The notes: a model not told the origin generated them from the letters alone. Positions 24 through 33,588 are shown, numbered from the stretch's first letter. The stretch is 64,000 bases of DNA from an uncultured Acidobacteriota bacterium (GCA_963837945.1 CAWIQD010000024.1:11469-75468); one strand, 5' to 3'. Translations and numbers: made by a program.

Positions 24-2621
24 GTGGAAATCGGCGAGGGACCCTTCGGGGGATTGCGACACGGAGCCGTCGGTCGTCGCATCACTGCCTACCTTCGTGG
101 AAATCGGCGAGGGACCCTTCGGGGGATTGCGACATGCATTGCAGTCGCATCAGCGTAGATCTGCTTCGCGTGGAAATCGGCGAGGGACCCTTCGGGGGAT
201 TGCGACACTTCAACTGCTGGCCGTTTGCACGCTTGGCCTCCGTCGGTGGAAATCGGCGAGGGACCCTTCGGGGGATTGCGACATGCGCGTACCATTAGTC
301 CTGGCGTCGGCGAGCTGCTCGGTGTGGAAATCGGCGAGGGACCCTTCGGGGGATTGCGACCGATCGAGCACCAGGTCGGCCGAGCTCCGCCAGGTCTGCT
401 CGGTGGAAATCGGCGAGGGACCCTTCGGGGGATTGCGACACGTTCAGCGCTCGGTCGTCGAACGCCCTCCGTGATCGTGGAAATCGGCGAGGGACCCTTC
501 GGGGGATTGCGACATCGTTCCGCCAGCGTCGCTGTGACCTGCTGCTCCGTGGAAATCGGCGAGGGACCCTTCGGGGGATTGCGACAGAGACGCGTGCATC
601 CGGCGAGCATCCGCCGCCTCGCGTGGAAATCGGCGAGGGACCCTTCGGGGGATTGCGACACAGCACGCGTCGGACTCTGCGCCCGCACGGCTGCGGTGGA
701 AATCGGCGAGGGACCCTTCGGGGGATTGCGACATCGGTGTACTGTCTGGCATCGATGCGTTACCTCCTGTCAGTGGAAATCGGCGAGGGACCCTTCGGGG
801 GATTGCGACACGACTTGCGGCCGACGGTGATCGCGACCAGTACCATCGAAGTGGAAATCGGCGAGGGACCCTTCGGGGGATTGCGACGCTCTAGAGCCGC
901 CGTGAACATCCGGCGGCTTCGGCCGCGTGGAAATCGGCGAGGGACCCTTCGGGGGATTGCGACATCTGACGTACTTTCGCGGCTATCGACGCACCTCATG
1001 GTGGAAATCGGCGAGGGACCCTTCGGGGGATTGCGACAGCTGCCCGTCGAGTCCGATGATGTCATGATCGAGCACCGTGGAAATCGGCGAGGGACCCTTC
1101 GGGGGATTGCGACTTCAGCAACGACCGCCGGCAGTTGTTCGGTCCTCATGTGGAAATCGGCGAGGGACCCTTCGGGGGATTGCGACATTTGACGAAGTCC
1201 AGACCTGTTTTATTCGCACCTCCGGCTCCAGTGGAAATCGGCGAGGGACCCTTCGGGGGATTGCGACATGCTTCGACGACGGCTTCGTGACAACCTCCTT
1301 CCTTGGTGGAAATCGGCGAGGGACCCTTCGGGGGATTGCGACGCTGCAGGTACTGAGTCGACGATGCATCGCATCCAGCGGTGGAAATCGGCGAGGGACC
1401 CTTCGGGGGATTGCGACATTCCGAAGTTCGCCGGGAACGCGGCAGCCGATCGCGTGGAAATCGGCGAGGGACCCTTCGGGGGATTGCGACATTTCGTGAC
1501 GCTGATCTCCGTCCGGAATGCATGATCTGAGTGGAAATCGGCGAGGGACCCTTCGGGGGATTGCGACTCGCAATTCCTCTGACGCTAGAACATCGCGAGG
1601 ATCGGCGTGGAAATCGGCGAGGGACCCTTCGGGGGATTGCGACGGCCGACGACGCACCATGATGCACTCGACCGGTGTCCTGTGGAAATCGGCGAGGGAC
1701 CCTTCGGGGGATTGCGACATTGCAGTCATGAAGATCATCGGCGACCTCCGTGTTGACTGTGGAAATCGGCGAGGGACCCTTCGGGGGATTGCGACCACAG
1801 AAATTGTCGTCGGGAACACCCACCGGATTGACGTGGAAATCGGCGAGGGACCCTTCGGGGGATTGCGACATGATGACGAGGATCGGGTGATAGCACCACC
1901 ATCATGACGTGGAAATCGGCGAGGGACCCTTCGGGGGATTGCGACATGAAACATCCTTCTTTCCCCCGACTGCCATGATTAGAGTGGAAATCGGCGAGGG
2001 ACCCTTCGGGGGATTGCGACATTGGGGCGACAATGGACTCGTCCATGTCGAAGTCAGAGGTGGAAATCGGCGAGGGACCCTTCGGGGGATTGCGACATCC
2101 GCTTGGTCCTGGCATGTTGCGTTGCTCCCTTCGTGGAAATCGGCGAGGGACCCTTCGGGGGATTGCGACATGTTGGTGCGGTCCATCGGAGTCTCCTTTA
2201 TCTGCCGTGGAAATCGGCGAGGGACCCTTCGGGGGATTGCGACATATACCCCCGCACGGAGTCAGTAACGTTGACCCCGTTAGTGGAAATCGGCGAGGGA
2301 CCCTTCGGGGGATTGCGACATCCGACGGTACCGAGATGAAGCCGGACATGGACGTCTCTGTGGAAATCGGCGAGGGACCCTTCGGGGGATTGCGACACTC
2401 GCGTACTGCCTTCGGGGTCCCCGATGGCGTACTGGTGGAAATCGGCGAGGGACCCTTCGGGGGATTGCGACACTGCGCGGAGAAGCTACTGCATAGCTTC
2501 CCTCCTTAGTCTGTGGAAATCGGCGAGGGACCCTTCGGGGGATTGCGACATCCCAGTCCACGCTGGGCACGCGACCGTCCGAGTGGGTGCAGATCGGCGA
2601 GGCACGTCCGCCGGACTTCGT
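24..2621 (+). CRISPR. CRISPR array 1: 34 copies of the 37-nt repeat GTGGAAATCGGCGAGGGACCCTTCGGGGGATTGCGAC with 33 spacers of 35-44 nt, followed by a degenerate terminal repeat at ~2584-2621
   Basis: I counted repeat ends directly at 60, 133, 206, ... 2549, giving a period of ~73-81 nt. The distal repeat GTGGGTGCAGATCGGCGAGGCACGTCC... is degenerate, which places the leader upstream at the window start. The leader-repeat junction CAAGGACTTGAGAGGGGTGGAG is also found in front of array 2. Confidence 0.95.
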
Positions 2622-2827
2622 TGCTCGTAGACAGGTGAGCCCGAGAGGTGGCGGACGGCGGGGCCCGGCCTCTGGCCTCGTGGCCTGGGTCGGGTCAGGT
2701 CAGGCCAGGTGCTGTCCTGACGGGGTGTTGGCAGATCGGCGGCTCTCGGGCGGCGGGGCAGAACCGGGCCGAGGCGCCGCTCCGGCGGCGGCTGGTCGCT
2801 CTCGAGACGGGTGAGCGCCCAAAGCGG

Positions 2828-3058
2828 CTACTCGCCGCCGCGCTTCCGGAGCTCTCGTCTCGCCGCCCGGATCAGGCGATCCCGCGACCACCCGGAGACG
2901 CTCAGGTCGGAGCGCTCCGCCGCTCGGCGCAGGAGCTCCAGGTCCGACTCCCTCATCCGCAGTCGAATCGCCGCCTCGAACCGCTCGGTGGGCCTCTTCT
3001 TGGGGCGAGCCATGGCCGGACTGTAGGCCGATACGATCAGCCCGTCAACCCTTGACAA
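2828..3058 (-). CDS. Small ribbon-helix-helix (RHH, CopG/MobC-like) DNA-binding protein; the alternative start at 3013 gives 61 aa
   Basis: The sequence ARPKKRPTERFEAAIRLRMRESDLELLRRAAERSDLSVSGWSRDRLIRAARREL shows the typical RHH beta-strand plus two helices pattern. Confidence 0.45.
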   Translation of the reverse strand: MSRVDGLIVSAYSPAMARPKKRPTERFEAAIRLRMRESDLELLRRAAERSDLSVSGWSRDRLIRAARRELRKRGGE

Positions 3059-4140
3059 AGGCTTGTTTTTCGGCCTACAATAACCAGATGGTCGATGACC
3101 TGATTCGGGGTGATGGCGCGGGGCGGGAAGGCGGCTCCGGGAGGACCTGTCCCGCGTGCGAGACCCCGGTGATCAAGTACGGCAAGACGGCCGCCGGGCG
3201 CCAGCGGTACTGGTGTCGGAGTTGCCGCAGCACCACGTCGGACGCCGCTCCTCGATCGCCGATCCATCCCATGCGGATTCCGCTCGAGCGCGCGGTGCTG
3301 TGCCTGCGGCTCCTGGTCGAGGGCAGCAGCATCCGGGCGGCCGAGCGGATCACCGGCACCCACCGGGACACGATCGGTCGGCTGCTGCTCCTGGCCGGGG
3401 GGCGGTGCGAGAGGCTCCTCGCCGAGCTGGTGACGGACGTCGAGGTCCACGACGTCGAGACCTCCGAGCTCTGGGCCTTCGTGGGGATGAAGGAGACGAC
3501 CCGGGAGCGGCTGGGCTTGGGCGACCCGCGGGTGGGCGACGCCTACGCGTTTCTCGCCATGGAGCGAGATTCGAAGCTGATCCTCGCCTGGCACCTGGGC
3601 CGGCGCACGGCCGAGCACACGGACGCGTTCGCCGAGAAGCTCGGCCGCGCGACCGCCGGCCGTTTCCAGCTCACGACCAGTGGGCTCGCGGCCTATCGCG
3701 AGGCCGTGAGCTTCCACTTGGGCGAACGCACGGACTACGCGACGCTGGTCAAGGAGGTCGGACCGGGGAAGGGCTCGGACGAGGGCCGCCGGCTGCCTCC
3801 GCGGATCGTGGGCGTGAAGAAGAACCGCGTCCATGGCGATCCGGATCCGGCGCGGGTTTGCACGTCTCACGCCGAGCGCGGAGCGCTGACGTTCCGGATG
3901 CAGTCGCGGCGCTTCACGCGGCGGACGAACGCCTTCTCGAAGTCTTGGAGGCACCACCGTGCGGCCCTGGCGCTCCAGCTCGCTCACTACAACCTCTGCT
4001 GGATGCACGCCTCCATCCGCATGACGCCGGCCATGAAGGCCGGGGTCGTCGGGAGGCCCTGGAAGCTTGAGGAGCTCCTGGCCGACGGGGGATCAGGGCC
4101 CGCGAGCGGGCTCTGATTTCGCCTCGTCGATTCCCGCGAG
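3030..4140 (+). mobile_element. IS1-family insertion sequence (boundaries approximate; imperfect terminal motif ATCAG(AG)CCCG near 3035 and 4120)
   Basis: A single fused InsAB-like transposase ORF. Weak terminal inverted similarity. No clear target-site duplication seen. Confidence 0.45.
3052..4116 (+). CDS. IS1-family transposase (fused InsA zinc-finger/HTH + InsB DDE domain)
   Basis: The N-terminal CPACETPVIKYGKTAAGRQRYWCRSCRST matches the IS1 InsA zinc ribbon (CPSC...NGKSTAGHQRYLCSHCR). The motif ELWAFVGMKE and the C-terminal RRTNAFSKS...HYNLCWMH match InsB motifs. Confidence 0.75.
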   Translation: MTKACFSAYNNQMVDDLIRGDGAGREGGSGRTCPACETPVIKYGKTAAGRQRYWCRSCRSTTSDAAPRSPIHPMRIPLERAVLCLRLLVEGSSIRAAERITGTHRDTIGRLLLLAGGRCERLLAELVTDVEVHDVETSELWAFVGMKETTRERLGLGDPRVGDAYAFLAMERDSKLILAWHLGRRTAEHTDAFAEKLGRATAGRFQLTTSGLAAYREAVSFHLGERTDYATLVKEVGPGKGSDEGRRLPPRIVGVKKNRVHGDPDPARVCTSHAERGALTFRMQSRRFTRRTNAFSKSWRHHRAALALQLAHYNLCWMHASIRMTPAMKAGVVGRPWKLEELLADGGSGPASGL

Positions 4141-4503
4141 CTCGCGGCACATTTTCCGGGCGAGCTCGTGGAGCTCCTGGGCGTAGCGAGCCGCGAAGGC
4201 GCGCAGCCGCGGGCTCGGGCTCCAGTGACCTCGCTGGTCACGCGGCTCGGCGAGCTCTCGGAGGTCTTCGACGCACGCCATCACGTCGGCGACGACCGCC
4301 TCGGTCCACGCGGCGTGCTCATCGCGGCTCGGATCGGGGCCGGTCTGCCAGGTATCCCAGCGCACGTAGTCGGCGAGGATCTTGCCGACCTGCTCGACGG
4401 CCCGCCGGTCGCTCGGGTCCTCGAAGCGCCAGAGGAGAGCCTGACGCATGGCGGTCGGCAGAGGCGGATAGGGCTCGCCCTCGTCATCGACGACCCGGAC
4501 CAT
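4093..4503 (-). CDS. Hypothetical protein (hypB), translationally coupled downstream of radC
   Basis: The start MVRVVDDEGEPY overlaps the radC stop (ATGA). No recognisable domain. Confidence 0.4.
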   Translation of the reverse strand: MVRVVDDEGEPYPPLPTAMRQALLWRFEDPSDRRAVEQVGKILADYVRWDTWQTGPDPSRDEHAAWTEAVVADVMACVEDLRELAEPRDQRGHWSPSPRLRAFAARYAQELHELARKMCRELAGIDEAKSEPARGP

Positions 4504-5225
4504 CACAACAGGCGCCTGTCCCGGAAGGAGGCCCAGCGCTGGGCGCCGCCGAGGATGATGTGGTCCGCGAGCCGGACTCCCACGGCCTCGCACGCCTCCG
4601 CCAGGCGCCGGGTGAAGCGGATGTCTTCTATGGTCGGGGACGGATCGCCCGACGGGTGCGTGTGGAAGACGACCACGCTCTCCGCCGCGCGGTCGAGGGC
4701 GAGAGCGATGATCTGGCGCGGCTCGACCGAGGCTCTCGTCAGCGTGCCGCGGAACAGCTCCGCCATGCCCACGAGCCGCCGCCGGGTGTCGAGGAAGAGG
4801 GCGCCCATCACCTCCTGGTCTCGGAGGACGTAGCGCAGCGCCAAGTAGCGGGCCACCTCGTCTGGCCGCCCCATGGGCTCTCGCTCGGGGACCTCGGCCC
4901 GGGCGAGGCGCCGGGCGAGCTCGAGCGCGGCGAGGACCGAGGCGGCCTTCACCTCGCCCAGGCCGCGGCGCTGGAGGGCCTCGGGGCGGATGCCCACCAG
5001 GCCGGGGAGCCCGGAGGTCTCCTCGAGGATCTCGCGGGCGAGCTCCAGGGAGCAGACGTCGCGCGAGCCGTGGCCCAGGACGAGGGCGAGCACTTCGGGG
5101 TCGGAAAGGGCTTCGCCACCGCTCCGAAGCAGGCGCTGGCGCGGGCGCTCGTCGGGGGGCATCTCCCGGATGAGGCTCGGGAGACCGCTTCTGGAGGGTC
5201 GGGCCCTGGGACGCCGGCGGGCCAT
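4503..5225 (-). CDS. radC: RadC-family JAB/MPN domain protein (UPF0758)
   Basis: Contains the JAMM motif HTHPSGDPSPTIEDIRFTRRL and the conserved RadC N-terminal helix-hairpin region (EVLALVLG). The true start is the internal Met at 5225; the 363-aa track ORF has a spurious N-terminal extension. Confidence 0.85.
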   Translation of the reverse strand: MARRRPRARPSRSGLPSLIREMPPDERPRQRLLRSGGEALSDPEVLALVLGHGSRDVCSLELAREILEETSGLPGLVGIRPEALQRRGLGEVKAASVLAALELARRLARAEVPEREPMGRPDEVARYLALRYVLRDQEVMGALFLDTRRRLVGMAELFRGTLTRASVEPRQIIALALDRAAESVVVFHTHPSGDPSPTIEDIRFTRRLAEACEAVGVRLADHIILGGAQRWASFRDRRLL

Positions 5226-5587
5226 CAGCCGTCCTCCCGGCCGTCGGCCCACTCGGCCCAGTCGGCGAAAGCCGCGGCGAAGTGGCGCTCCAGCTCTTCG
5301 GGCGTCCAGGCGAGGGCCCGGTCGGCGCCGGCGAAGGCGCTGTCCGAGCCCGGCGAGTCCGCCGAGTCCTCGGCGCCGTGGCCCACGACCCAGCAGCGGG
5401 TCGCCTCGGCCGCGAAGAGAATCCGGAAGCGCTCGCGGTCGCCGCCCTCGAGGCCCGTCTCGGCGGGCGGGAGGCAAGAGAGAGTCTCGGCCGCGAGGTG
5501 CAGAAGGCCGAGACCGATGGAGAGGGTGACCCGAAGCTCGTCGTTCGTCGGGTCGGCGGGCGCGATACGATCCCTCAAGCTGCTCAT
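5225..5587 (-). CDS. Hypothetical acidic protein (hypA), first gene of the hypA-radC-hypB operon
   Basis: GAGGAG ribosome-binding site 8 nt upstream of the ATG. Its stop overlaps the radC start (ATGA). No domain recognised. Confidence 0.35.
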   Translation of the reverse strand: MSSLRDRIAPADPTNDELRVTLSIGLGLLHLAAETLSCLPPAETGLEGGDRERFRILFAAEATRCWVVGHGAEDSADSPGSDSAFAGADRALAWTPEELERHFAAAFADWAEWADGREDG

Positions 5588-5982
5588 GAGGCACGCTCCT
5601 CGTGAGTGGTCAGGCCCGGCGGGTCGCTAGCGGCTTCCCGCCGGGCCGCTCCGTGGTTTCCGGGCTCGCATGGCCCCGGCTGTTCGGCCCAACCTACCCC
5701 GCCGTCAAGGCCCAGAGGTAGCCAACACGCCTTTGGGACAGCACTCCTCGTCGCAAGTAGTTGCTCGAAGGGTACGTCTTGCGCTAACCTCCGGGGAGGC
5801 CGAAAACGTGGGGAGGTTAGCGCAGACCCCGGAAAGCGTCGAAGCTCTTTGAAATCAGAGGGTTACCGAGATTCGTCCGGTTCTGGCCTCGCCGGTCTTG
5901 CCCCTCGCCGAGGCCCAGTCTGGGGAGGTTAGCGGAAATGGCCTTCCAACTCACTGAGCCACAAGGACTTGGGAGGGGTGGA
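5588..5982 (+). promoter_or_regulatory. Leader of CRISPR array 2; contains a hairpin GCGCTAACCTCC-N19-GGAGGTTAGCGC (~5781-5823) and a third copy of GGGGAGGTTAGCG at ~5931
   Basis: Non-coding region between the divergent hypA start and the first repeat. Its last 23 nt (CAAGGACTTGGGAGGGGTGGAG) are shared with the array 1 junction. Confidence 0.6.
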
Positions 5983-8900
5983 GTGGAAACCGGCGAGGAA
6001 CCTTTCGAGGGATTGCGACACGAGGCTGCCGAAGATGAGGGTGACTAAGCTCATGAGTGGAAACCGGCGAGGAACCTTTCGAGGGATTGCGACATTCTAC
6101 CGACTCTTTTCAGAGTCTAGGATTTCGCTGTGGAAACCGGCGAGGAACCTTTCGAGGGATTGCGACTGCTCGGAGACGGGATTCATGCACTCTTGCCCTC
6201 CGTGGAAACCGGCGAGGAACCTTTCGAGGGATTGCGACCATTGCGCGACTCCGGCCGCCGCTGTCAGGCTTTCGTGGAAACCGGCGAGGAACCTTTCGAG
6301 GGATTGCGACTACGTCCCTGGCCATCCCTCTCGGCGAACCTGTGGAAACCGGCGAGGAACCTTTCGAGGGATTGCGACCAGTGAGCGTCGACGTCATCCT
6401 TTCTCCGTGGAAACGCAGGTTTCGAGGTGGAAACCGGCGAGGAACCTTTCGAGGGATTGCGACATGTAGCGTGCCGACGATCGAGCTCAGTGCATAGCTC
6501 GGGTGGAAACCGGCGAGGAACCTTTCGAGGGATTGCGACATTGAACTGCGACTCGTCCGCACGAGTCATCTTCCGCTGTGGAAACCGGCGAGGAACCTTT
6601 CGAGGGATTGCGACATGTCTGGGCGTGACGGTCAATCTCCGACTCCTCCTCCGTGGAAACCGGCGAGGAACCTTTCGAGGGATTGCGACCATTGCTCGAT
6701 GCCGGCGTCGCTTTCCGAATTCGAGTGGAAACCGGCGAGGAACCTTTCGAGGGATTGCGACTGTACGACGCCGCGGCCGTTGGTCTCGGCGATCCGGGTG
6801 GAAACCGGCGAGGAACCTTTCGAGGGATTGCGACACTGAAACGTGTCGTCGAGGAATCGGCTATCCTCGCCTGGGTGGAAACCGGCGAGGAACCTTTCGA
6901 GGGATTGCGACATCTTCAGGACACGTCGCGTTCGTGAAGTCGTCGGCTCCTTGTGGAAACCGGCGAGGAACCTTTCGAGGGATTGCGACATGTCCGGAGT
7001 CGGTTCGAGGTCGGCATCGTCACCCTGCGTGGAAACCGGCGAGGAACCTTTCGAGGGATTGCGACATGTCGACTCCTGACCGGCTGACGGGCTGCGATAT
7101 CCTGGGTGGAAACCGGCGAGGAACCTTTCGAGGGATTGCGACGTGATGCACGTCGATCCGATGCAGTCACTGCCGTCTCCGGGGTGGAAACCGGCGAGGA
7201 ACCTTTCGAGGGATTGCGACATCGTCCGACAGGTCGCAGGGCGACTCGTTAGGTGGAAACCGGCGAGGAACCTTTCGAGGGATTGCGACATGTCGATTCC
7301 TGACTCGCTCCGGATGTCGTATGTCCTGTGGAAACCGGCGAGGAACCTTTCGAGGGATTGCGACATGAGAGTCTCCGCGCAGGATGCCGTCTCGTCGAGT
7401 GGAAACCGGCGAGGAACCTTTCGAGGGATTGCGACACTCGAACTCGTCGTCACAGGCCACTGGCGCGTGCTGTGGAAACCGGCGAGGAACCTTTCGAGGG
7501 ATTGCGACATCTCGACGGAACTTGCGCGATCCCGTCGATGCAGTGGAAACCGGCGAGGAACCTTTCGAGGGATTGCGACATCTCAGACGCTGCGTCGCTG
7601 GCATCGCTCGCTGCGTGGAAACCGGCGAGGAACCTTTCGAGGGATTGCGACATCTCGTGGCTTGCATGTCTTCCAATCCTGCTCGACGTGGAAACCGGCG
7701 AGGAACCTTTCGAGGGATTGCGACACTGGATGATCGCTTGTGTTCGTTGATCCTCGTCGAGGTGGAAACCGGCGAGGAACCTTTCGAGGGATTGCGACTT
7801 CAGCGAGGCTTCGCATGACTTAGCATCCTCCGGGTGGAAACCGGCGAGGAACCTTTCGAGGGATTGCGACATTTGCGGCTCCTGCCGAGAGCTCGTTACC
7901 CGAAGTGGAAACCGGCGAGGAACCTTTCGAGGGATTGCGACACTTGACGTGGTCAGGCCGCGAGTCGCCTACTGCGTGGAAACCGGCGAGGAACCTTTCG
8001 AGGGATTGCGACATCTCTGGCACCGCTCGGCGACGGCAGCTCCGTTCATGCGATACCTTGTGGAAACCGGCGAGGAACCTTTCGAGGGATTGCGACCCGA
8101 TGACTGCCAGAGTCTTCCAGAACATCTGCGTTCCGTGGAAACCGGCGAGGAACCTTTCGAGGGATTGCGACATGTCGTCCTGCGCCTGCGTCGGCTTAGT
8201 CGCAGTGTGGAAACCGGCGAGGAACCTTTCGAGGGATTGCGACATTCCGGGCAGTACGCTTTTCTCAGCCTCAACCTTGGGTGGAAACCGGCGAGGAACC
8301 TTTCGAGGGATTGCGACATCGCTCGAGTCGATTCATCTTGGCCTCCTTAAGTGGAAACCGGCGAGGAACCTTTCGAGGGATTGCGACATTCTACGATCCC
8401 GGCTCACTCTTACACGCCCTCCTGTGGAAACCGGCGAGGAACCTTTCGAGGGATTGCGACACGGTCGAGGTCTCGTCGGTGACATGGCCAGTTCTCCACG
8501 TGGAAACCGGCGAGGAACCTTTCGAGGGATTGCGACATACAGGAACTCCCTGTCGACGAGCATGGAGGTCCGAGTGGAAACCGGCGAGGAACCTTTCGAG
8601 GGATTGCGACATCCGAAGGACTGCCCTCGGCCGCGTCGTCGCTGTCTAAGTGGAAACCGGCGAGGAACCTTTCGAGGGATTGCGACACTTGCTGCTGCAC
8701 CCATGGTGCCGCAGCAGACCAGTCGGTGGAAACCGGCGAGGAACCTTTCGAGGGATTGCGACAGCTCTTCCGGGACGCATCCCGAGAAATTCCAACCGAT
8801 CGTGGAAACCGGCGAGGAACCTTTCGAGGGATTGCGACCTTACCTGGCGAAGCGGAGGCCATGCTCTGCGGTCGGGTGGAAACCGGCGAGGAACCTTTCG

Positions 8901-9584
8901 AGGGATTGCGACATTTTTTTCTGCCTCGAGAAGACAAGCGGCTTGCTGTGTGGAAACCGGCGAGGAACCTTTCGAGGGATTGCGACCGTTGTCTCCAACC
9001 GCTCTCCTCCACTCCGTCCACTGAGTGGAAACCGGCGAGGAACCTTTCGAGGGATTGCGACCCATTTCAAGAGAGACCAGTTGACACTGACCCCTCCCGT
9101 GGAAACCGGCGAGGAACCTTTCGAGGGATTGCGACACAATCGTGCGACGGAGAGATCGAAGTGGAGGACTTTCGCCGTGGAAACCGGCGAGGAACCTTTC
9201 GAGGGATTGCGACAGAGACTTGCAGGAATTGGATCATACCATCCTCCTTTTGGGTGGAAACCGGCGAGGAACCTTTCGAGGGATTGCGACTGGTCAGGGC
9301 CTAGGTAGCGGCCGTCGCCGTCGAAGTGGAAACCGGCGAGGAACCTTTCGAGGGATTGCGACAGCTCAACGATGAGTAGTTTCACGACGTCCTCCCGCGG
9401 TGGAAACCGGCGAGGAACCTTTCGAGGGATTGCGACATTGTGCCATCCGGGTGTAGTCCACGCCGTCGCCGGCGCTGGAAACCGGCGAGGAACCTTTCGA
9501 GGGATTGCGACGAGCGCTGGGCGAGCGGTCGATGGTTCCACGTCGAGGTGGAAACCGGCGAGGAACCTTTCGAGGGATTGCGAG
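5983..9584 (+). CRISPR. CRISPR array 2: 49 copies of the 37-nt repeat GTGGAAACCGGCGAGGAACCTTTCGAGGGATTGCGAC with spacers of ~31-43 nt; one 20-nt partial repeat at ~6407-6426; the penultimate repeat has G1->C and the last repeat ends GCGAG
   Basis: Direct counting of repeat ends (6019, 6093, ... 9511, 9584). The repeat differs from the array 1 repeat at 4 of 37 positions (8, 17, 21, 26). The same leader-repeat junction motif precedes it. Confidence 0.95.
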
Positions 9585-9746: not shown

Positions 9747-9913
9747 TGATTCCGCCGGCCTGGCGTGTACACCTCGTCTACGCCATTCTCGCCCTCGCCA
9801 GATACCTCCGCACCCTCGCGGCCCGCCGGGACTTCATTGCGGAGGCCCTGGACGACGAGACGCTGGTCCTCTTCGGCCGCACCCAGATGCGTCGCCTGGC
9901 GGGGGCCGGCTGA
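9747..9913 (+). pseudogene. Remnant / short paralog of the 3' end of the 10530..11105 gene (C-terminal peptide ...EALDDETLVLFGRTQMRRLAGAG)
   Basis: About 35 aa and ~130 nt, including the post-stop region, are homologous to the 3' end of the gene at 10530-11105. It lies immediately after the array 2 terminal repeat. Confidence 0.3.
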
Positions 9914-10041
9914 GCCCCTGCTCCCCGACCGGCCGGAACGGCTGATCCCGCCCCGGCCTTCACCATCTTCCCCGCATCGGGCGGGGAGGCGAGTCCATCT
10001 CCGCTCTGCTCGATCGGGCTCGTCCTGAAAGCTCTGGGACC

Positions 10042-10392: not shown

Positions 10393-10529
10393 CGTTCCAA
10401 CGAAGCCGCTTCCCGGCCCCGTCCTCCGCGGAGGCGCGAGGTCACGGGTCACCGGGAGCGAAACGAAAGCGGCCCGGGCGAGCTCGAACCTCACCCGGGC
10501 CTGACCCGCGAAAGGAGAAAGCACCTCCA

Positions 10530-11105
10530 ATGCGAGCCGAGACAGAGAGTAGCAGGACTTCGTCCCCCGCCCGTCGTTCTTCCAGCTTCACCGCGCCGGC
10601 CAACGCCTTCTCGGCCGCGTTCCTCGACGCCGCCCGGCGCCGGCGGGACGCGGCCGAGCCGGAGGACGCCCCGCGCGCTCCGGCGCTCGCCGCCGGCGCG
10701 CTCGCCGCCGGGCCCTTCGAGGTCGAGGCGGTGCCGGCCGGCTCGGGGCGGCTCTGGGCGGTGGTCCGCCGGGGCGAGCGGGTGGCCGAAGGGCACCCGG
10801 CCGTGGCGGTCTTCCTGGAGCGGACGGCCGCCCTCCTGGCGGCGGCGGTGCTGCCGGCGGAGGCGTCGCCCAATCACCTCCAGGTCGGGGAGAAGGCGAA
10901 GCGCCTGGGCCTGCCGGTGCACGACGGCCGGCGCCACCTGGGGCACCTCGCCCGGCCCCACGAGCACTTCGCGCGGGACCTCCACGCCGCCCGGACGCTC
11001 GCGGCCCGCCCGGACTCGCTGGTGCTCCTGGCCGAGGCGCTCGACTACGAGACCCTGGTCCTCTTCGGCCGGGCGCTCATGCGCCGGCTGGAGCGGGCCG
11101 GCTGA
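10530..11105 (+). CDS. Hypothetical protein (191 aa) with a conserved C-terminal motif ALDYETLVLFGRALMRRLERAG
   Basis: Strong ribosome-binding site AAAGGAGAAA. A paralogous remnant lies at 9747-9913. Confidence 0.5.
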   Translation: MRAETESSRTSSPARRSSSFTAPANAFSAAFLDAARRRRDAAEPEDAPRAPALAAGALAAGPFEVEAVPAGSGRLWAVVRRGERVAEGHPAVAVFLERTAALLAAAVLPAEASPNHLQVGEKAKRLGLPVHDGRRHLGHLARPHEHFARDLHAARTLAARPDSLVLLAEALDYETLVLFGRALMRRLERAG

Positions 11106-11207
11106 GGCGCCGGGCGCTCGGCCACCGGCCGGGGCGGGCGCGACCCCGCCCCGGCCGGGTTCTTCCGGTCGTCGGCGCGAGGATACGTCGCTGGGGCCAC
11201 CCGCTCT

Positions 11208-11762
11208 TTACGGCAGCAGATCGGCGACGGCGACCGGTCCCCGGAGGGCCGCCGAGGAGAGCTGCTCGCCGTGGGCCGCGACCCGGTGCTCGGTGAAGCC
11301 GTCGCCTTCGGGCGCTCTGAAGACCTCCAGGCGACCCTCCGCCACGTTCACCAGCCAGACCTCCGGAATGCCGTGTCGCGCGTAGAGCGGGAGCTTGCGG
11401 TGGCGGTCGAAGGCGAGGCTCGAGTCCGCGACCTCCACCACGAGGGCGGCGGTCGCCGGGTGGGCCCCGAGGTAGTCCCGGGGGCGACCTGCGACGACCG
11501 CCACGTCGGGCTCCGGCTCGGAGTCCTGCCCGAGCGCCAGAGGGAGCTGGACCCGGAGACAGTACCCCTCGGCCAGCGCCGCGTCGAGGGCCTCGTAGAC
11601 CAGCTGGATCGTGCCGGCGTGCCGCGCGTTCTGCGGTGTCATCTCCAGGATCTCCCCCTCGATCAACTCGAGCCGCTCGTCTTCCTGGAAGACGCCCTGC
11701 TCGATCAAGCGGTCGTACTCCTCGCGGGTCCACTTGCGGGGCTGGTTGACGGCGACGCTCAC
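11208..11762 (-). CDS. Uma2-family (DUF820) PD-(D/E)XK putative endonuclease
   Basis: RKWTREEYDRLIEQGVF...ERLELIEGEILEMTPQNARHA is the canonical Uma2 N-terminus. Confidence 0.8.
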   Translation of the reverse strand: MSVAVNQPRKWTREEYDRLIEQGVFQEDERLELIEGEILEMTPQNARHAGTIQLVYEALDAALAEGYCLRVQLPLALGQDSEPEPDVAVVAGRPRDYLGAHPATAALVVEVADSSLAFDRHRKLPLYARHGIPEVWLVNVAEGRLEVFRAPEGDGFTEHRVAAHGEQLSSAALRGPVAVADLLP

Positions 11763-11897
11763 AGCTCGGTCTCCTCGGTTGATCAGTATAGCGGCGAGCG
11801 TGTTGCCCTACGGAGGGATCCCTCGACTCGCTGCGCTCGCTCGGGATGACAAGGGGGGGGCGGCGCTCGCTCGGGATGACGGCGAGGGAGCTCGCCG

Positions 11898-14800
11898 TCA
11901 GAACGGGTTGCCGACGGCCAGGTAGAAGTGGAAGCGGGTGGTGGCGCCGGGGTCGGGGTCGAGCTGGTAGCCGAAGCCGGCGCGCACGGGGCCGATCGGC
12001 GAGACGTAGCGCACGGCGACTCCGACGCCGGTCTTGACGTCGCGCGGGTCGACGTCGCGCCAGTCGGGCCAGACGTTGCCCGCGTCCACCCACAGCACGC
12101 CGCCGACCGGCCCCCAGACCGGGAAGCGGTAGTCGAGGTTCGCGAGCAGCAGGCCGTTGCCGCCGCGGCCGCGGCCGTCGGCGAAGAGGGTCGTGCCCGG
12201 GATGCCGAGCTCGTCCTTGCCGTAGGCCCGGTGGCTGAAGTCGCCGCCGGCGAAGAAGCGCTCGTCGATCGGGATCTTCAGGTTCGGCGGCTCGGGGGGC
12301 TGCGGCGCGCCCGAGGGCGTGGTGGTGTTGTTCTTGGTCGCGTCGACGAGCGGCGCGATGGCGCCGAAGCGGATGCTCCCCGCCAGGTGCCCGAAGCCGA
12401 GCGGCAGGTAGCGGGTGTGCTGGAGGAAGGTCTTGAGGAAGTTCGCGTCGGTCAGCCCCGGGATCGGGAACGCCCACTGGAAGCGGGCGCTGGCGCTCCA
12501 GCCGCGGGTCGGGTCGATCGGGTCGTTGCGCCGGTCGACCAGGATGTTGGGGACGACCGAGGAGATGTGGATGTCCTGGTCGCGCCGCTCGATGATCTGG
12601 GTCGGGTCGGTGATCTGCTGGGAGGCGGCGACGGTCAGGGTGGAGTTGATGATCCGGTAGTCGAAGGCGAGGCCGTAGCGCCAGACGTCCTCCTGCTTGA
12701 CCGCCTCGGCCTGGGTGACGATCCGGTCGACGTCGTAGCTCGGCAGCTCCTCCTGCTGGAAGGCCACGTTGTAGACCAGCGGGATGTGCCAGCGGGTCAG
12801 GTCCGGCTGGTCGAGGGCGACCCGGGCGAGGCGCTCCTTCTGGCCGTAGCGCAGGTCGGTCTGGAGGGTGAAGGCGCGGCCGAAGAGGTTGCCCTGGCGG
12901 TAGCCGACGAGCCCGGCGAAGCCGGTGTCCGTGTCGTAGCCGAGGCCGTAGCTCACCCGCCGCGTGCGCCCCTCCTGGACCCGGATCACGACGTCGCGCT
13001 CCTGCTCGGAGAGGTCGGACGGCCCGAGCTCCACCTGGGCGCGCGAGAAGATCCCGAGGCCGTAGAGGTCGCGCTCCGCCTCGAGGAGCCGCGTCGGGCT
13101 GACCGGCTCGCCGGGGTCGAGGTCCACCGCGTGCTCGATCACGTCGTCGTCGGTCTTGACGTTGCCCCGGACGATCACCCGGTCGACCCGGGTCTGCGGC
13201 CCCTCGATCACCTGGATCGTCAGGTCGACCAGGCTGTGGTCGGCGTTCCAGGTCTCGGTCGAGGAGACCTGGGTCGAGAGGTATCCCTTCTCCTCGTAGC
13301 GCCCGCGGATCTGGCGCAGGCTGTCCTCGAGCAGGAGCGGATGGAACGGCCCGCCGGCGTGGAGCGGCAGGTCCTTGCGCAGGTCGTCCTCCGAGAGCGC
13401 CTCGACGCCCTGGAAGGAGAGGTCGACCAGCTGGCGGCGCATCCCCTCCTCGATCGGCACCCTGAGCGTCAGGTTGCGGCCGTCGGCCTGGACGTCCGGC
13501 GGGCCGACCTTGTAGCTGGCGTACCCCTGGAGGGCGTAGAAGGAGCGCACGTTTTCGAGGTCGTCCTGGAGCACCGCGTCGACCAGCTTGCCGCTGCCCA
13601 GGGTGAGGAGTCGCTTGGGCTTGGTCTCCATGAGCTCGGCGAGCTTGCCGTCGCTCACCTGCCGGTTGCCGTCGAAGCGGATCTCCTGGAGGGTGTAGAC
13701 CGGGCCGGGCTCGACCCGGAAGGTGAGCCGGAGCGCGCCGTCCGCCGTCGTCTCGTCCCAGGTGACCGCGACCTTCCAGTGCCCCTTCTCCTGGTAGTAG
13801 CGCTTGACCCGGTCGGCCGCCTGGAGCACCAGCGCCTCGTCGTAGCCGTCCTCGCCGAGGAACGGCAGCAGGTCGTTTTTCTCGAGCTCCTTGCGCGCGA
13901 CGCCCACGATCTCCACCGTCACCAGCGGGCCGAGGGTCACCGGGTAGGCGAGGTCGACCCGGTGGCCCTCGCGGTCCTGGGTCTCCTTGGCCTCGCCGAC
14001 CTGCGCCTTGCGGTACTTCTGCTTGACCAGCCAGGCCTGGAGGCGCTCGGCGTCGTCGTCGACGGTGTCGCGGAGGTAGGGCTCGCCGGGGCGGGCGCGG
14101 AGCTGCTCGACGAGGGTCGCGGGCCGGAACGAGCCCAGCTCGCCCTCGAAGCTCACCGTGCCGATCGTCGAGCGCGCTCCGGCCGCGACCTCGAAGGTCA
14201 CCACCGAGCGCTTGGTCTCGTCGTTCGTGTCGACGGCGAGGTGGACCCGGGCGGAGAAGTAGCCGCGCTTCTCGAACAGGTCCTGGAGGCGGTAGACGCT
14301 CCTGAGCAGCCGGCTCTCGATCAACGGCTGGCCGGCGGCGACCAGCAGCTCGCTCTCGAGGTCGTGGCGGTCGAGCTTGCCGGTCTCGCCCACGACCGAG
14401 ACCTCGTCGACCTGCACCGCGGCCCAGACCGCCACCACCACGACCACCTGCTCGGCCGCCGGGTCGGAATCGACCGGCACGGCGGGCGGCGCGAGCCGCT
14501 CGCCCGGCTCGGCGGGACGGGTGTAGAGCTCCACCTCGTAGGCCGCGCCGGTCGCCTGGAGGTTGCGCAGGGTCCGGCGCACCCCGCGGTCGGTGAGCCG
14601 CGTGCCCGGCTCGATCGCGATCAGCTGGCGCAGCTCGCCGGCCGGCCCGAGCGGGGCGTCGCTTCGCACCTCGATGCGGGCGACGACCGGCCCGCGGCCG
14701 GCGACCGGCCCGGGCAGCGCCGGCGGCGCCTCGTCCCCCGCCACGACCACGTCGGGCGGCTCGACGGTCTCGACCGGCGGCTCGCGGGGCGGGATCGCCG

Positions 14801-15011
14801 GGCCCTCGACCGTCGTCGCGTCCTCGGGAGAGAGGACCGGGGCCGGCTCGGGCGCCGGCGGCGGCGCCTGGTCCTGGGTCGGATCGGGGGCCTGAGCCCG
14901 GGCCTGATCCTGGTCCTGGCCCCGGGCCGGGGCGCCCGCCAGCAGCAGCGCGGCGAGGAGCCCGGGAGCCGAGCTCCGGAGCAGGAGCCGGAGTGCGCCG
15001 CGCGCCGTCAT
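11898..15011 (-). CDS. tamA: Omp85-family outer membrane protein TamA/BamA-like, with a POTRA region, a long Pro/Ala/Gln-rich N-terminal linker and a C-terminal beta-barrel ending VGNPF
   Basis: POTRA-like repeats and the surface-antigen barrel motifs (RVSYGLGYDTDTG...GFGYQLDP). The start ATG overlaps the tamB stop (ATGA). Confidence 0.75.
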   Translation of the reverse strand: MTARGALRLLLRSSAPGLLAALLLAGAPARGQDQDQARAQAPDPTQDQAPPPAPEPAPVLSPEDATTVEGPAIPPREPPVETVEPPDVVVAGDEAPPALPGPVAGRGPVVARIEVRSDAPLGPAGELRQLIAIEPGTRLTDRGVRRTLRNLQATGAAYEVELYTRPAEPGERLAPPAVPVDSDPAAEQVVVVVAVWAAVQVDEVSVVGETGKLDRHDLESELLVAAGQPLIESRLLRSVYRLQDLFEKRGYFSARVHLAVDTNDETKRSVVTFEVAAGARSTIGTVSFEGELGSFRPATLVEQLRARPGEPYLRDTVDDDAERLQAWLVKQKYRKAQVGEAKETQDREGHRVDLAYPVTLGPLVTVEIVGVARKELEKNDLLPFLGEDGYDEALVLQAADRVKRYYQEKGHWKVAVTWDETTADGALRLTFRVEPGPVYTLQEIRFDGNRQVSDGKLAELMETKPKRLLTLGSGKLVDAVLQDDLENVRSFYALQGYASYKVGPPDVQADGRNLTLRVPIEEGMRRQLVDLSFQGVEALSEDDLRKDLPLHAGGPFHPLLLEDSLRQIRGRYEEKGYLSTQVSSTETWNADHSLVDLTIQVIEGPQTRVDRVIVRGNVKTDDDVIEHAVDLDPGEPVSPTRLLEAERDLYGLGIFSRAQVELGPSDLSEQERDVVIRVQEGRTRRVSYGLGYDTDTGFAGLVGYRQGNLFGRAFTLQTDLRYGQKERLARVALDQPDLTRWHIPLVYNVAFQQEELPSYDVDRIVTQAEAVKQEDVWRYGLAFDYRIINSTLTVAASQQITDPTQIIERRDQDIHISSVVPNILVDRRNDPIDPTRGWSASARFQWAFPIPGLTDANFLKTFLQHTRYLPLGFGHLAGSIRFGAIAPLVDATKNNTTTPSGAPQPPEPPNLKIPIDERFFAGGDFSHRAYGKDELGIPGTTLFADGRGRGGNGLLLANLDYRFPVWGPVGGVLWVDAGNVWPDWRDVDPRDVKTGVGVAVRYVSPIGPVRAGFGYQLDPDPGATTRFHFYLAVGNPF

Positions 15012-18000: not shown

Positions 18001-19073
18001 ATGCCGTCCGGGACGACGCGCAGCTTGCCCGAGACGTCGGAGAGCACCCGGCGGTCCTGGACCAGGCGGCGCGACGAGAGCCCGCCCTCGACCGCCCAGC
18101 CCTCGGGCCGCCAGAGCAGGCTGCCGTCGAAGCGGAAGGGGCCGGAGACCGGCGGCTCCTCGGCGTCGAGATACCCGAGGTCGGCGGCGAGCGCGACCTG
18201 GCCCTCCGCCGAGAGCTCGAGGTCCAGGCGCCGCGTCTCCTCCGGCACGAGGAGCGTGCCGTGGGCGGTGAGCCGGAGGTCCGGCCCGGTCAGCCGGGAC
18301 TCGACGATCTCGACCCGCTCGGGTCCGACCCGCACCTTGCCCGAGAAGGCCGCCACGTAGTGCTTCCCCGGCGGCAGCGTCACCTCCACCTCCTGGGCGG
18401 TGGCGAGCCCTTCGAGCTCGTTGCCGCCCTGGCCGCCGGTGCCGACGAGGCGGGCGAAGACCGCCTGGGCCCGGAGGTCGAACGGCAGCTCGAGCGTGTC
18501 GAGGTGGAAGCGCCCCTGCTCGGCGACCACGGCGCCGATCCGCACCTGCACCCGCCCGCCGCCGCCCTGGCCGGTGCCGAAACGGGGCAGGTTGTTCGAG
18601 CCGTCCTCGCGCACCTCGAGGTAGACCTCGGGGCGCTCGACGAAGACCTGGGTGATCTCGATCCGCGGCCGGTTCCAGCTCTCCCAGCCCTCGATCCGGG
18701 CGTGCAGGGTGAGCTGGGGGACGCGGGCCACGGGCGGCGCTCCGGGCCGGTCGCCCGGGATCACCACGTCGTCGAGCTCGATCGAGATCGGGTAGAGGGT
18801 CCAGTGGACGGCGCCCACCGAGAGGTCGCGCCCGAAGTAGCTCGAGAGGCGGGCCACGAGGAGGCCGCGGGCCCTCTCGCGCGCGCCTGGGCTCTGGAGC
18901 CAGACGTAGGCGCCGGCCACCACCAGGACCAGGAGGACCAGCAGGTAGACGACGCTGCGCAGCAGGCAGCCGCGGGCGCACCCGGTCCTCTGCCGGCGCG
19001 GGCCCTCGTCGCCGAGGCGCTCCGGGGCCTCCTCCCCGCCCGTGCCGGGCCGGGTGAGCTCCTCGTCGCTCAT
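15011..19073 (-). CDS. tamB: TamB/AsmA-like translocation and assembly module protein (DUF490 C-terminus ...IDARWDKRF); an apparent 1-nt frameshift near 17060 splits it into 19073-17057 and 17062-15011
   Basis: The N-terminal 672 aa in one frame and the C-terminal 683 aa in the adjacent frame are both clearly TamB-like. The junction ...LAGLETDLL/IADLSFD sits at a short A/T run. Confidence 0.7.
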
Positions 19074-33279: not shown

Positions 33280-33588
33280 GTGCCACCCCCTCGTCCTGCC
33301 GGGATGGGGGTGCGGGTGGTCCGGAGCTTCCTCCGTCACGTGGAGGGATAAATGAGCTGCATCCCCCGCGCAGCCGTGTGGACTGCCGCGCCTAGAACCT
33401 TAAGCGCCAAGTGGGTGTCCGCGCCACCGGCCATCAGCGTCCCCGTTCGAGCGGGGCTGGCACAGTCCGGCGGGTGAAGACTCCCTAGTTGTATATGTTG
33501 GTTCTACCATGGGTTGGCCCATCACGAACCACGCAGGGGATGCAAACTCTTCGACCTTCGTCATATCTCTAGGACGGCCACCGGTGGA
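33280..33588 (-). ncRNA. Candidate non-coding RNA region between zapA and rny (possibly 6S/SsrS-like by synteny)
   Basis: A ~310-nt intergenic region with locally reduced GC (...CTAGTTGTATATGTTGGTTCTACCATGG...). 6S RNA commonly lies immediately downstream of zapA. No structure verified. Confidence 0.2.

What the first reader, a model, noticed from the sequence alone, without database searches (positions are those of the whole stretch)
2586..5594. Mobile-element-like insert between the two arrays: RHH protein, IS1-family element, and a translationally coupled hypA-radC-hypB operon diverging from the array 2 leader
The IS1-type transposase has an InsA-like zinc finger and an InsB-like DDE domain in one ORF. 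The three minus-strand genes hypA (120 aa), radC (JAB/MPN) and hypB (136 aa) overlap by ATGA at both junctions. RadC-like JAB proteins with small unknown partners are typical cargo of integrative elements, prophage anti-restriction regions and CP4-44-like islands. Their placement between two CRISPR arrays raises two possibilities: an element inserted at or between arrays, or accessory genes associated with the CRISPR locus.
Basis: partly seen in the sequence, partly recalled or inferred. Interest (0 to 1): 0.5.

Follow-up and report, generated by a model that had tools for sequence, protein, structure and literature searches.

The report
Disabled IS1-type transposon carrying RadC operon
The 3-kb stretch between the two CRISPR arrays is one old jumping-gene unit of the IS1 family that carries a three-gene RadC operon as cargo and whose transposase has lost its two catalytic aspartates yet is still kept by selection; it is a mobile-element relic, not a demonstrated CRISPR accessory.

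Summary
The whole block, window 2708-5745, is one unit bounded by 24-nt inverted repeats (GGTnnTGTCC...GTGTTGG). A Thermoanaerobaculia relative (L011) has the same repeat type around a 4.9-kb element with an 8-9-bp target duplication, an RHH gene, an intact-DDE IS1-like transposase and a hypB-like gene. So this is an IS1-family transporter IS: an RHH + transposase module plus a passenger operon hypA-radC-hypB.

It is not a recent insertion. The block is colinear at 82-85% nucleotide identity in other metagenome contigs and 99.5% in a close strain. All five genes are under purifying selection (dN/dS 0.1-0.3).

In this clade alone, both catalytic Asp of the transposase are Ser (S-S-E, against D-D-E in 101 of 120 homologues). 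The transposase is therefore probably dead but retained.

RadC is the full-length HhH+JAB form. hypA-radC also occurs in mobile-element or defence islands with no CRISPR nearby, so a CRISPR-accessory role is not supported. Array 2 still acquires spacers.

The gene junctions are TGATG (1-nt overlap), not ATGA. hypA and hypB are new small helical families of unknown fold.

Verdict: new variant of a known kind; moderate interest.

The parts
24..2549 (+). CRISPR array 1. 34 perfect repeats of GTGGAAATCGGCGAGGGACCCTTCGGGGGATTGCGAC. It may continue beyond the window start.
2587..2632 (+). Degenerate terminal repeat at the trailer end of array 1.
   Evidence: Sequence. It lies at the expected spacing after the last perfect repeat.
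2708..2732 (+). Left terminal inverted repeat (IR-L) of the element: GGTGCTGTCCTGACGGGGTGTTGGC.
   Evidence: The IR pair is. The pattern has only 2 matches in 64 kb, with 0.03 expected. The same arm is present in L001, L009 and L022, and the same type in L011 and L012. Homology between the window and L009/L022 starts at 2702-2705.
2828..3013 (-). RHH (ribbon-helix-helix) protein of 61 aa. Predicted repressor of the divergent promoter pair.
   Evidence: Weak RHH hits. 87-93% identical in L009 and L001. dN/dS about 0.11. A homologous RHH lies divergent from the transposase gene in L011.
3020..3081 (.). Back-to-back sigma70-like promoters. On the + strand: TTGACA-18-TACAAT. On the - strand: TTGACG-17-TACAGT. 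Their -10 boxes lie inside a 12-nt inverted repeat (3020-3031 / 3070-3081, 11 of 12 complementary), which is the predicted RHH operator.
   Evidence: these are the only 2 promoter-like sites in 3.5 kb, with 0.0 expected. Sequence. The same structure is conserved in L001, L009 and L022 (L009 I1).
3088..4116 (+). IS1-family single-ORF transposase homologue of 342 aa: Zn ribbon + HTH + DDE-fold core. Both catalytic Asp are replaced by Ser (S-S-E).
4093..4503 (-). hypB, 136 aa, acidic and helical. Member of a small unnamed family. Its 3' end overlaps the 3' end of the transposase gene by 24 nt.
4503..5225 (-). radC, 240 aa: an N-terminal UPF0758/HhH domain plus a RadC-type JAB domain, with the HxHx7(T)x2D motif intact.
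   Evidence: The motif was read from the translation.
5225..5587 (-). hypA, 120 aa, acidic (pI 4.4), helical bundle. Conserved upstream partner of radC.
5721..5745 (-). Right terminal inverted repeat (IR-R). It lies 133 nt upstream of the hypA start and 237 nt upstream of the first repeat of array 2.
5746..5982 (+). Leader of array 2. GC content is lower here.
   Evidence: The leader is identical in L008, where it adjoins an array that differs in all but its oldest spacers.
5983..9584 (+). CRISPR array 2. 49 repeats of GTGGAAACCGGCGAGGAACCTTTCGAGGGATTGCGAC. The last two repeats carry 1 mismatch each.

Best explanation
Window 2708-5745 (about 3.04 kb) is a single IS1-family 'transporter IS', that is, an IS derivative carrying passenger genes. 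It inserted between the trailer of CRISPR array 1 and the leader of array 2 in an ancestor of this Thermoanaerobaculia lineage and has been inherited with the locus since.

It has two modules.

(i) A transposition and regulation module. A small RHH protein and a Zn-ribbon/HTH/DDE-fold transposase homologue are transcribed divergently from back-to-back sigma70-like promoters. The -10 boxes of those promoters sit in a 12-nt inverted repeat. I infer that the RHH dimer binds there and represses both genes.

(ii) A passenger operon, hypA-radC-hypB, with 1-nt stop/start overlaps (TGATG) that suggest translational coupling and a stoichiometric complex.

In this clade the two catalytic aspartates of the transposase are serines. 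I infer that the protein can still bind the conserved terminal repeats through its Zn ribbon and HTH, but cannot cut or join DNA. The element would then be immobile on its own. The protein would be retained as a DNA-binding factor, most likely an InsA-like repressor or competitive inhibitor acting at the element's ends.

RadC (HhH DNA-binding domain plus Zn-dependent JAB hydrolase) with its two acidic helical partners most likely acts on DNA or a DNA-bound protein, as proposed for RadC domains of conjugative and integrative elements.

Shown: the anatomy, the inverted repeats, family membership of the relatives, conservation, purifying selection, and the D-to-S substitutions. Inferred: loss of catalysis, RHH operator binding, the retained role of the transposase, and the biochemical role of the RadC operon.
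For: Inverted repeats:
- Arms at 2709-2732 and 5721-5744, 24 nt, 83% complementary.
- The pattern has 2 matches in 64 kb against 0.03 expected.
- The same arms flank the block in L001. The left arm is present in L009 and L022, and homology to the window begins at that arm.

The L011 relative (54% identical transposase, DDE intact):
- Arms of the same type, matching at 21 of 24 positions, lie at 8664-8687 and 13533-13556.
- They are flanked by the direct repeat CGGGCCTCG.
- They enclose an RHH gene, the transposase gene and a hypB-family gene.
- L012 has the same arm type directly after the transposase stop codon.
- Nine arms aligned together share an invariant GGTnnTGTCC...TGTnG.

Age and conservation:
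- Colinear at 84.6% nucleotide identity over 2827-5778 in L001, and at 99.5% over 3412-6020 in L008.
- dS is 0.32-0.50 for all genes. dN/dS is 0.23-0.30 for the transposase (bootstrap upper bound <=0.42, with the former catalytic core most constrained), about 0.11 for RHH, and 0.22-0.30 for hypA, radC and hypB.

Catalytic residues:
- ETSELW aligns with xADELW, TTSGL with TTDGF, and ERGA with ERxN. The alignment is anchored on E. coli IS1 InsB.
- 101 of 120 homologues show D-D-E-N. Only the three proteins of this clade show S-S-E-A.

Promoters.

RadC: full-length and above the equivalog cut-off.

Passenger module in other contexts:
- hypA-radC next to NikA/MobC, AbiEi, ImmA, HicAB and PIN genes.
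- A hypB-like gene after radC in L007.

Literature: transporter IS concept (PMC9330008, PMC7986276). RadC as a predicted nucleic-acid-processing domain of conjugative elements (PMC3239186, PMC5512222). IS1 InsA/InsAB' bind the IS ends through their Zn-finger and HTH motifs (PMC12903888).
Against: - There is no target-site duplication around the window element. The flanks are TCAGGCCAG and TCCTCGTCG.
- No second copy lies in the 64 kb, and no empty site was found.
- IS1 transposase scores are below the curated cut-offs.
- The identity of the catalytic residues rests on homology and on my recollection of Ohta et al. 2002, which could not be read here.
- The element has different left flanks in L009/L022 (gene X') and in the window/L001 (array 1). 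This needs either movement after inactivation, by trans-mobilisation, or a rearrangement.
- In the 99.5%-identical strain L008 the first 108 codons of the transposase gene, the RHH gene and array 1 are replaced by a cas1 fragment. If that contig is not chimeric, the transposase/RHH module is dispensable.
- hypB is absent in L009.
- All evidence comes from a handful of metagenome contigs of one clade.
Confidence: 0.65

Rival explanations
1. CRISPR-linked accessory module. The RHH and the dead IS1-like protein (and/or hypA-RadC-hypB) have been co-opted by the type III CRISPR locus. The protein might bind the repeat in the array-2 leader and modulate array transcription or spacer integration. RadC might process nucleic acids for adaptation or interference.
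For: - Every instance of the S-S-E clade seen lies beside arrays with this repeat: window, L008, L001 and L009. L022 is like L009 but too short to show the array.
- IR-R lies inside the array-2 leader region.
- In L008 the block abuts type III genes, mCpol and a Csx3-like gene.
- The genes are under purifying selection.
- Array 2 is highly active.
Against: - All instances are orthologous loci of one narrow clade, so they represent one or two evolutionary events.
- hypA-radC loci L002-L007 and the active relative L011 have no CRISPR within about 10 kb.
- No PADLOC hit apart from weak generic JAB hits.
- No paper held all three terms RadC, type III CRISPR and accessory except one unrelated study, and none held RadC, JAB and anti-defense.
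- L008 lacks the RHH gene and the transposase N-terminus, yet its array kept growing.
Confidence: 0.1
2. An ordinary, still active IS1-family IS inserted recently next to an unrelated resident radC operon.
For: - Zn ribbon, HTH and DDE-fold are in one ORF.
- Homologues are annotated as IS1 family transposases.
- Strong promoters are present.
Against: - No inverted repeats flank the transposase gene alone. The inverted repeats enclose the operon.
- The 3' ends of the transposase gene and hypB overlap.
- The same position is occupied in relatives diverged by dS 0.4-0.5.
- Both catalytic Asp are lost.
- No other copy lies in the window.
Confidence: 0.08
3. hypA-radC-hypB is the host's core, housekeeping radC locus. 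The flanking repeats and the transposase are incidental neighbours.
For: - RadC passes the NCBIfam equivalog cut-off and has the canonical HhH+JAB architecture.
- Synteny is conserved in four relatives.
Against: - The hypA-radC pair, at 74-79% nucleotide identity, sits in several different island contexts, often frameshifted or truncated.
- L003 has hypA without radC.
- The operon lies inside the inverted repeats.
- hypA has only 8 homologues among 5.8 billion clusters, which is not a housekeeping distribution.
Confidence: 0.07

Closest known systems
IS1 family insertion sequences, single-ORF / ISMhu11-type members and 'transporter IS' (tIS) derivatives (ISfinder classification, recalled from memory; tIS concept in PMC9330008 and PMC7986276)
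   Same: - N-terminal InsA-type Zn ribbon and HTH, with an InsB-type core in one ORF.
- Terminal inverted repeats of about 24 nt whose tips fit GGnnnTG.
- An 8-9-bp target duplication in the intact relative L011.
- Passenger genes inside the inverted repeats.
   Different: - Both catalytic Asp are Ser in this clade.
- A divergently transcribed RHH gene with a symmetric operator replaces the insA/frameshift control of IS1.
- No target duplication is left around the window copy.
- The copy is fixed at one locus for dS of about 0.4-0.5.
- Scores are below the curated IS1 transposase cut-offs.
E. coli IS1 InsA repressor/inhibitor
   Same: InsA is a DNA-binding derivative of the transposase reading frame (Zn finger + HTH). 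It binds the IS ends and has no catalysis (PMC12903888). This is the role I propose for the S-S-E protein.
   Different: Here the full-length protein, with a constrained ex-catalytic core, is retained. No binding data exist for it.
RadC/YicR family (NCBIfam PRK00024; PDB 2QLC JAB domain)
   Same: UPF0758_N/HhH + RadC-JAB architecture. 201 bits against a cut-off of 180. Metal motif intact.
   Different: It is encoded as transposon cargo, flanked by two lineage-restricted acidic helical proteins with overlapping stop and start codons.
RadC-like JAB genes of CP4-44/CP4-6/CP4-57-type islands (yeeS, ykfG, yfjY) and RadC domains of conjugative-element polyvalent proteins (PMC5512222)
   Same: A RadC-type JAB domain carried by mobile elements together with small proteins of unknown function.
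   Different: - Those proteins are JAB-only or fused to ArdC, primase or helicase domains.
- Their partners (YeeT, CbeA/CbtA; recalled from memory) are unrelated to hypA and hypB.
- hypA and hypB gave no hit in Pfam, NCBIfam, PHROGs or PADLOC.
Domesticated prokaryotic transposases (e.g. TnpB-derived TldR regulators, Tn7-like CAST; recalled from memory)
   Same: A transposon-derived protein that has lost or repurposed catalysis and is kept by selection, here next to CRISPR arrays.
   Different: It belongs to a different transposase family (IS1 DDE). No guide-RNA link or functional link to CRISPR is shown.

Membership tests
IS1 family transposable element | InsA-type N-terminal zinc ribbon and HTH | tested here: met
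   NCBIfam NF050000 scores 41.3 bits against a cut-off of 28. Pfam Zn_ribbon_InsA scores 23.9 bits against 26.1. CxxC...CxxC is conserved in L001 and L009.
IS1 family transposable element | InsB-type transposase core scoring above curated thresholds | tested here: inconclusive
   NF033558 scores 66.5 bits against a cut-off of 100. PF03400 scores 19.1 bits against 24.1. However, 345 homologues were found, many named IS1 family transposase, and the motifs align to E. coli InsB.
IS1 family transposable element | Catalytic D-D-E triad | tested here: not met
   This clade has S-S-E. 101 of 120 homologues have D-D-E.
IS1 family transposable element | Terminal inverted repeats (tips GGnnnTG, per ISfinder, recalled from memory) | tested here: met
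   Arms at 2708-2732 and 5721-5745. The same arm type occurs in L001, L009, L022, L011 and L012. The right tip reads AGTGCTG.
IS1 family transposable element | 8-9-bp target-site duplication | tested here: not met
   There is none around the window copy (sequence). It is met in the relative L011, with CGGGCCTCG on both flanks.
IS1 family transposable element | Multiple copies / evidence of recent mobility | tested here: not met
   The window holds a single copy. The source genome is not available. The different left flank in L009/L022 is ambiguous.
RadC family (full-length) | UPF0758_N/HhH domain plus RadC JAB domain above the equivalog cut-off | tested here: met
   PF20582 E-value 1.2e-18. 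PF04002 E-value 4.1e-34. PRK00024 scores 201 bits against a cut-off of 180.
RadC family (full-length) | JAMM-type metal motif HxHx7Sx2D | tested here: met
   The sequence HTHPSGDPSPTIED is present, with Ser replaced by Thr. It was read from the translation.
CRISPR-associated accessory gene | Recurrent linkage to cas genes or arrays across independent lineages | tested here: not met
   Linkage is seen only in one orthologous locus group. hypA-radC loci L002-L007 and the L011 element have no arrays nearby.
Anti-phage defence system (PADLOC) | Match to a defence-system protein model | tested here: not met
   Only weak generic JAB hits, with E-values of 0.014 or higher.
Phage or prophage cargo | Relatives on viral contigs or viral protein families | tested here: not met
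   hypA has no relative in IMG/VR. PHROGs hits only RadC and, weakly, the transposase and the RHH protein. No BFVD fold match.

The most novel reading that the evidence does not exclude
A catalytically dead IS1-family transposase and its RHH partner have been exapted as sequence-specific DNA-binding proteins of a type III CRISPR locus. They would act at the transposon-end repeat embedded in the array-2 leader, for example to control array transcription or spacer acquisition, or to shield the arrays from invasion by active relatives. That would be a new class of transposase-derived CRISPR-associated regulator. An even less likely variant is that the S-S-E core retains an unorthodox catalytic activity.
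Probability: 0.1. Interest if true: 0.75.

Novelty: new variant of a known kind. Interest (0 to 1): 0.45.

Why it matters
This region turns into a well-delimited example of an IS1-family transporter IS. It shows a rare thing for bacterial DDE elements: a transposase that lost both catalytic aspartates yet stays under purifying selection, with its DNA-binding domains, its regulator and its terminal repeats intact.

That makes bacterial transposase domestication, or self-inhibition of an IS family, directly testable with a small construct.

It also defines two new small protein families (hypA, hypB) that travel with full-length RadC. That gives a handle on the still unknown biochemical role of RadC.

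For CRISPR annotation, it warns that genes conserved between arrays need not be accessory genes.

Tried and rejected
- **Exact-sequence look-ups.** Look-ups of hypA, hypB and RadC found nothing. My RadC query carried two extra N-terminal residues.
- **Source genome.** It is not in the species-representative genomes, so the region upstream of array 1 could not be seen.
- **Metagenome scan with the transposase.** It gave only one useful close locus, L022.
- **Viral contigs.** There is no hypA relative. The hypB alignment was too variable to scan with.
- **Family libraries.** Pfam, NCBIfam, PHROGs and PADLOC gave nothing for hypA or hypB.
- **Inverted repeats around the transposase gene alone.** None were found.
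- **Target-site duplication around the window element.** None was found.
- **Spacers.** None matches the element or any fetched locus.
- **Plasmid collection.** There is no hypA relative. Transposase relatives are only 29-41% identical.
- **Literature.**
  - A search for RadC with type III CRISPR and accessory returned only one unrelated paper, and one for RadC, JAB and anti-defense returned none.
  - The ISMhu11 search returned nothing.
  - Ohta et al. 2002 is not held.
- **RHH comparison.** I considered that the RHH next to the transposase gene might be the displaced hypA-linked RHH of other loci. The alignment shows they are different RHH subfamilies.

Full report
**1. What is in the sequence**

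The window is about 70% GC. It begins with two CRISPR arrays on the + strand.
- Array 1 has 34 perfect 37-nt repeats at 24-2549, followed by a degenerate repeat at 2587.
- Array 2 has 49 repeats at 5983-9584. Its last two repeats carry one mismatch each, so its leader is on the left.
- The two repeat sequences differ at four positions. Both end in ATTGCGAC.

Five ORFs lie between the arrays.
- An RHH protein at 2828-3013(-), 61 aa, with weak NikA/RelB RHH hits.
- An IS1-like single-ORF protein at 3088-4116(+), 342 aa. Its Zn ribbon is above the NCBIfam cut-off. Its IS1 transposase scores are below the cut-offs.
- hypB at 4093-4503(-), 136 aa.
- RadC at 4503-5225(-), 240 aa.
- hypA at 5225-5587(-), 120 aa.

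All five have GC3 of 0.85-0.92.

- The junctions read TGATG on the coding strand, a 1-nt stop/start overlap, not ATGA.
- RadC is the full-length UPF0758_N(HhH)+JAB protein. It passes the NCBIfam equivalog PRK00024 (201 bits against 180). Its metal motif HTHPSGDPSPTIED is intact.

Downstream of array 2 there are no cas genes. The genes there are Uma2, a giant AsmA/POTRA/Omp85 protein, NAD kinase, TlyA and PagL.

**2. The block is old and conserved, not a fresh insertion**

hypB has one close homologue among 5.8 billion clusters. Its 3.3-kb Logan contig, L001, carries the entire arrangement:
- leader-2-like sequence, then hypA, radC and hypB;
- the transposase gene, convergent with overlapping 3' ends;
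- the RHH gene, then an array-1 repeat at the contig edge.

L001 is colinear with window 2827-5778 at 84.6% nucleotide identity.

L008 is a close strain, 99.5% identical over 3412-6020. It has the same right-hand part and array 2.

L009/L010, a Thermoanaerobaculia MAG, and L022 carry the RHH gene and the transposase gene. L009 also carries radC (L022 ends inside the transposase gene). Both are about 82% identical to the window, and L009 lacks hypB.

Pairwise Nei-Gojobori estimates give dS of 0.32-0.50 for all genes. dN/dS values are:
- about 0.11 for RHH;
- 0.23-0.30 for the transposase (bootstrap upper bounds <=0.42);
- 0.22-0.30 for hypA, radC and hypB.

The genes have therefore co-diverged under purifying selection.

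**3. The block is one IR-bounded element**

A 24-nt imperfect inverted repeat lies at 2709-2732 and 5721-5744. Its pattern occurs only twice in the 64 kb, against 0.03 expected.

The same pair flanks the block in L001. The left arm is present in L009 and L022, and homology to the window starts exactly at that arm (2702-2705). The DNA to its left is different there: a gene X' whose window homologue lies at 10454-11167.

L011 is decisive. It is a Thermoanaerobaculia MAG whose transposase is 54% identical and has an intact DDE.
- Arms of the same type, GTCGTGTCCTAACTCA(C/G)TGT(T/G)GG, matching at 21 of 24 positions, lie at 8664-8687 and 13533-13556.
- They are flanked on both sides by CGGGCCTCG, an 8-9-bp target duplication as in IS1.
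- The 4.9-kb element holds a divergent RHH gene, the transposase gene and several small ORFs.
- One of those ORFs belongs to the hypB family (hhalign probability 91.8%, E 7.5e-7; hmmsearch E 1.2e-11).

L012 has the same arm type immediately after the transposase stop codon.

Nine arms aligned together share an invariant GGTnnTGTCC...TGTnG. The tips fit the GGnnnTG ends that ISfinder gives for IS1 (my recollection).

The window block 2708-5745 is therefore an IS1-family transporter IS, a concept described in PMC9330008 and PMC7986276. No inverted repeats bracket the transposase gene alone, and no target duplication survives here.

**4. The transposase is probably dead but kept**

I aligned the protein with 14 family members and with E. 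coli IS1 InsB. In that alignment:
- the first catalytic Asp (InsB EMDEQW, family xADELW) is Ser here (ETSELW);
- the second (InsB MTDGW, family TTDGF) is Ser here (TTSGL);
- the Glu is kept, but the adjacent ERxN Asn is Ala.

Among the 120 best homologues, 101 read D-D-E-N. Only the three proteins of this clade read S-S-E-A, and one reads D-S-E-N.

All three orthologues share S-S-E and still show dN/dS of 0.23-0.30. The former core is the most constrained part, at 0.16-0.25. So the protein has been maintained after the substitutions.

That these residues are the catalytic ones follows from the general DDE architecture and from Ohta et al. 2002, which I could not read here. PMC12903888 confirms that InsAB' has a catalytic DDE motif and that the Zn finger and HTH bind the IS ends.

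**5. Regulation**

The only sigma70-like promoter matches in 2500-6050 are a back-to-back pair in the 74-nt RHH/transposase intergenic region: TTGACA-18-TACAAT and TTGACG-17-TACAGT, against 0.0 expected.
- Both -10 boxes lie inside a 12-nt inverted repeat (3020-3031 / 3070-3081). This repeat is conserved in L001, L009 and L022.
- Both ATGs lie about 7 nt from their -10 box.
- I infer autoregulation by the RHH dimer.

**6. The passenger operon**

hypA has only eight homologues, all at least 58% identical. In every context seen, hypA is preceded by a divergent small RHH gene of another subfamily. In all but L003 it is followed by radC, which is often frameshifted or truncated.

These loci sit in islands with NikA/MobC, AbiEi, ImmA, HicAB, PIN, NACHT or TIR genes, or next to housekeeping genes.
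- In L007 a hypB-family ORF follows radC.
- None of these loci, nor L011, has a CRISPR array within about 10 kb.

hypA (pI 4.4) folds as a helical bundle in AF2 (pLDDT 78). hypB (pI 5.0) is also helical (pLDDT 66) and has about ten distant relatives in 1.84 billion representative proteins. Fold searches gave no specific match.

RadC-type JAB domains fused to HhH are predicted to process nucleic acids and are typical of conjugative elements (PMC3239186, PMC5512222).

**7. Relation to CRISPR**

In L008 the block abuts a divergent type III gene set: Cas10/Cmr2-like, RAMPs, a Csx3-like gene and mCpol, all below the curated cut-offs. In L008 the transposase gene is truncated at window position 3412 and fused to a 38-aa cas1 fragment. 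This is either a deletion variant or a chimeric contig.

Array 2 of L008 shares only four trailer-end spacers with the window's array 2, out of 53 and 48 spacers respectively. Both strains have therefore added more than 40 spacers since they split. The leader next to IR-R works.

All CRISPR-adjacent instances are orthologous loci of one clade. They count as one or two evolutionary events, which is too few to call the genes CRISPR accessories.

**8. Verdict**

The interpretation needs revising, as follows.
- The region is a fossilised IS1-family transporter IS, with an RHH regulator, a retained but probably inactive transposase, and a hypA-radC-hypB passenger operon.
- The mechanism I commit to has three parts:
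  - RHH-controlled expression of a DNA-binding, non-catalytic transposase derivative that acts at the conserved ends, as an InsA-like repressor or inhibitor;
  - a RadC complex that acts on DNA;
  - no demonstrated CRISPR role.
- Confidence is about 0.65.
- Novelty: a new variant of a known kind. Interest is moderate.

Noticed in passing
window 5983-9584 versus L008 12698-17010: Two strains are 99.5% identical in the adjacent element, yet share only 4 trailer-end spacers of array 2 (window spacer indices 41 and 44-46). More than 40 leader-proximal spacers differ in each, which points to very active spacer acquisition.
   Followed up: partly
L008 10001-10128 (junction corresponds to window 3411/3412): In the close strain, the 5' 108 codons of the transposase gene, the RHH gene and array 1 are replaced by a 38-aa cas1 fragment fused in frame. 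Next to it lie mCpol, a Csx3-like gene and divergent type III (Cas10/Cmr2, RAMP) genes. This is either a real deletion or a chimeric contig; I could not tell which.
   Followed up: partly
window 9808-9958 and 10454-11167; L009 274-1009; L022 133-863: Gene X (191 aa, no family) lies downstream of array 2. A partial copy of its 3' end sits directly after array 2. That partial copy is closer to X' of L009 (90%) than to the window's own X (77%). In L009 and L022, X' lies between the array and the element's left end. The locus has been rearranged in a way I could not reconstruct.
   Followed up: partly
L011 8664-13556: A complete 4.9-kb IS1-family transporter IS with 24-nt inverted repeats and an 8-9-bp target duplication. 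It holds an RHH gene, a DDE-intact transposase gene, two further RHH-like ORFs, a hypB-like ORF and two unknown ORFs, one of them apparently membrane-associated.
   Followed up: partly
L003 7364-7708 and 10001-10345: Two identical copies of hypA lie 2.6 kb apart. Each is followed by only a 19-aa remnant of radC. They sit in an island of small unknown ORFs next to IS4, SLFN/AlbA and TIR-NACHT genes.
   Followed up: no
window 33359-33542 (-): A 6S RNA (Rfam RF00013, 79 bits). It is the only Rfam match in the window. No tRNA genes were found in the 64 kb.
   Followed up: no
window 11898-19073 (-): A 2391-aa ORF that combines an AsmA/DUF748-like N-terminus, five POTRA repeats and a C-terminal Omp85 barrel. 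This looks like a TamB-like/BamA-like fusion.
   Followed up: no
window 11208-11807 (-): A Uma2-family putative restriction endonuclease lies directly downstream of gene X, near the end of the CRISPR region.
   Followed up: no
P0014 (JGI contig of 1608 bp, 63% identical to the window transposase): A family member with D-S-E-N: only the second catalytic Asp is replaced by Ser. It may be an independent or intermediate step towards inactivation. Its context could not be looked up.
   Followed up: no
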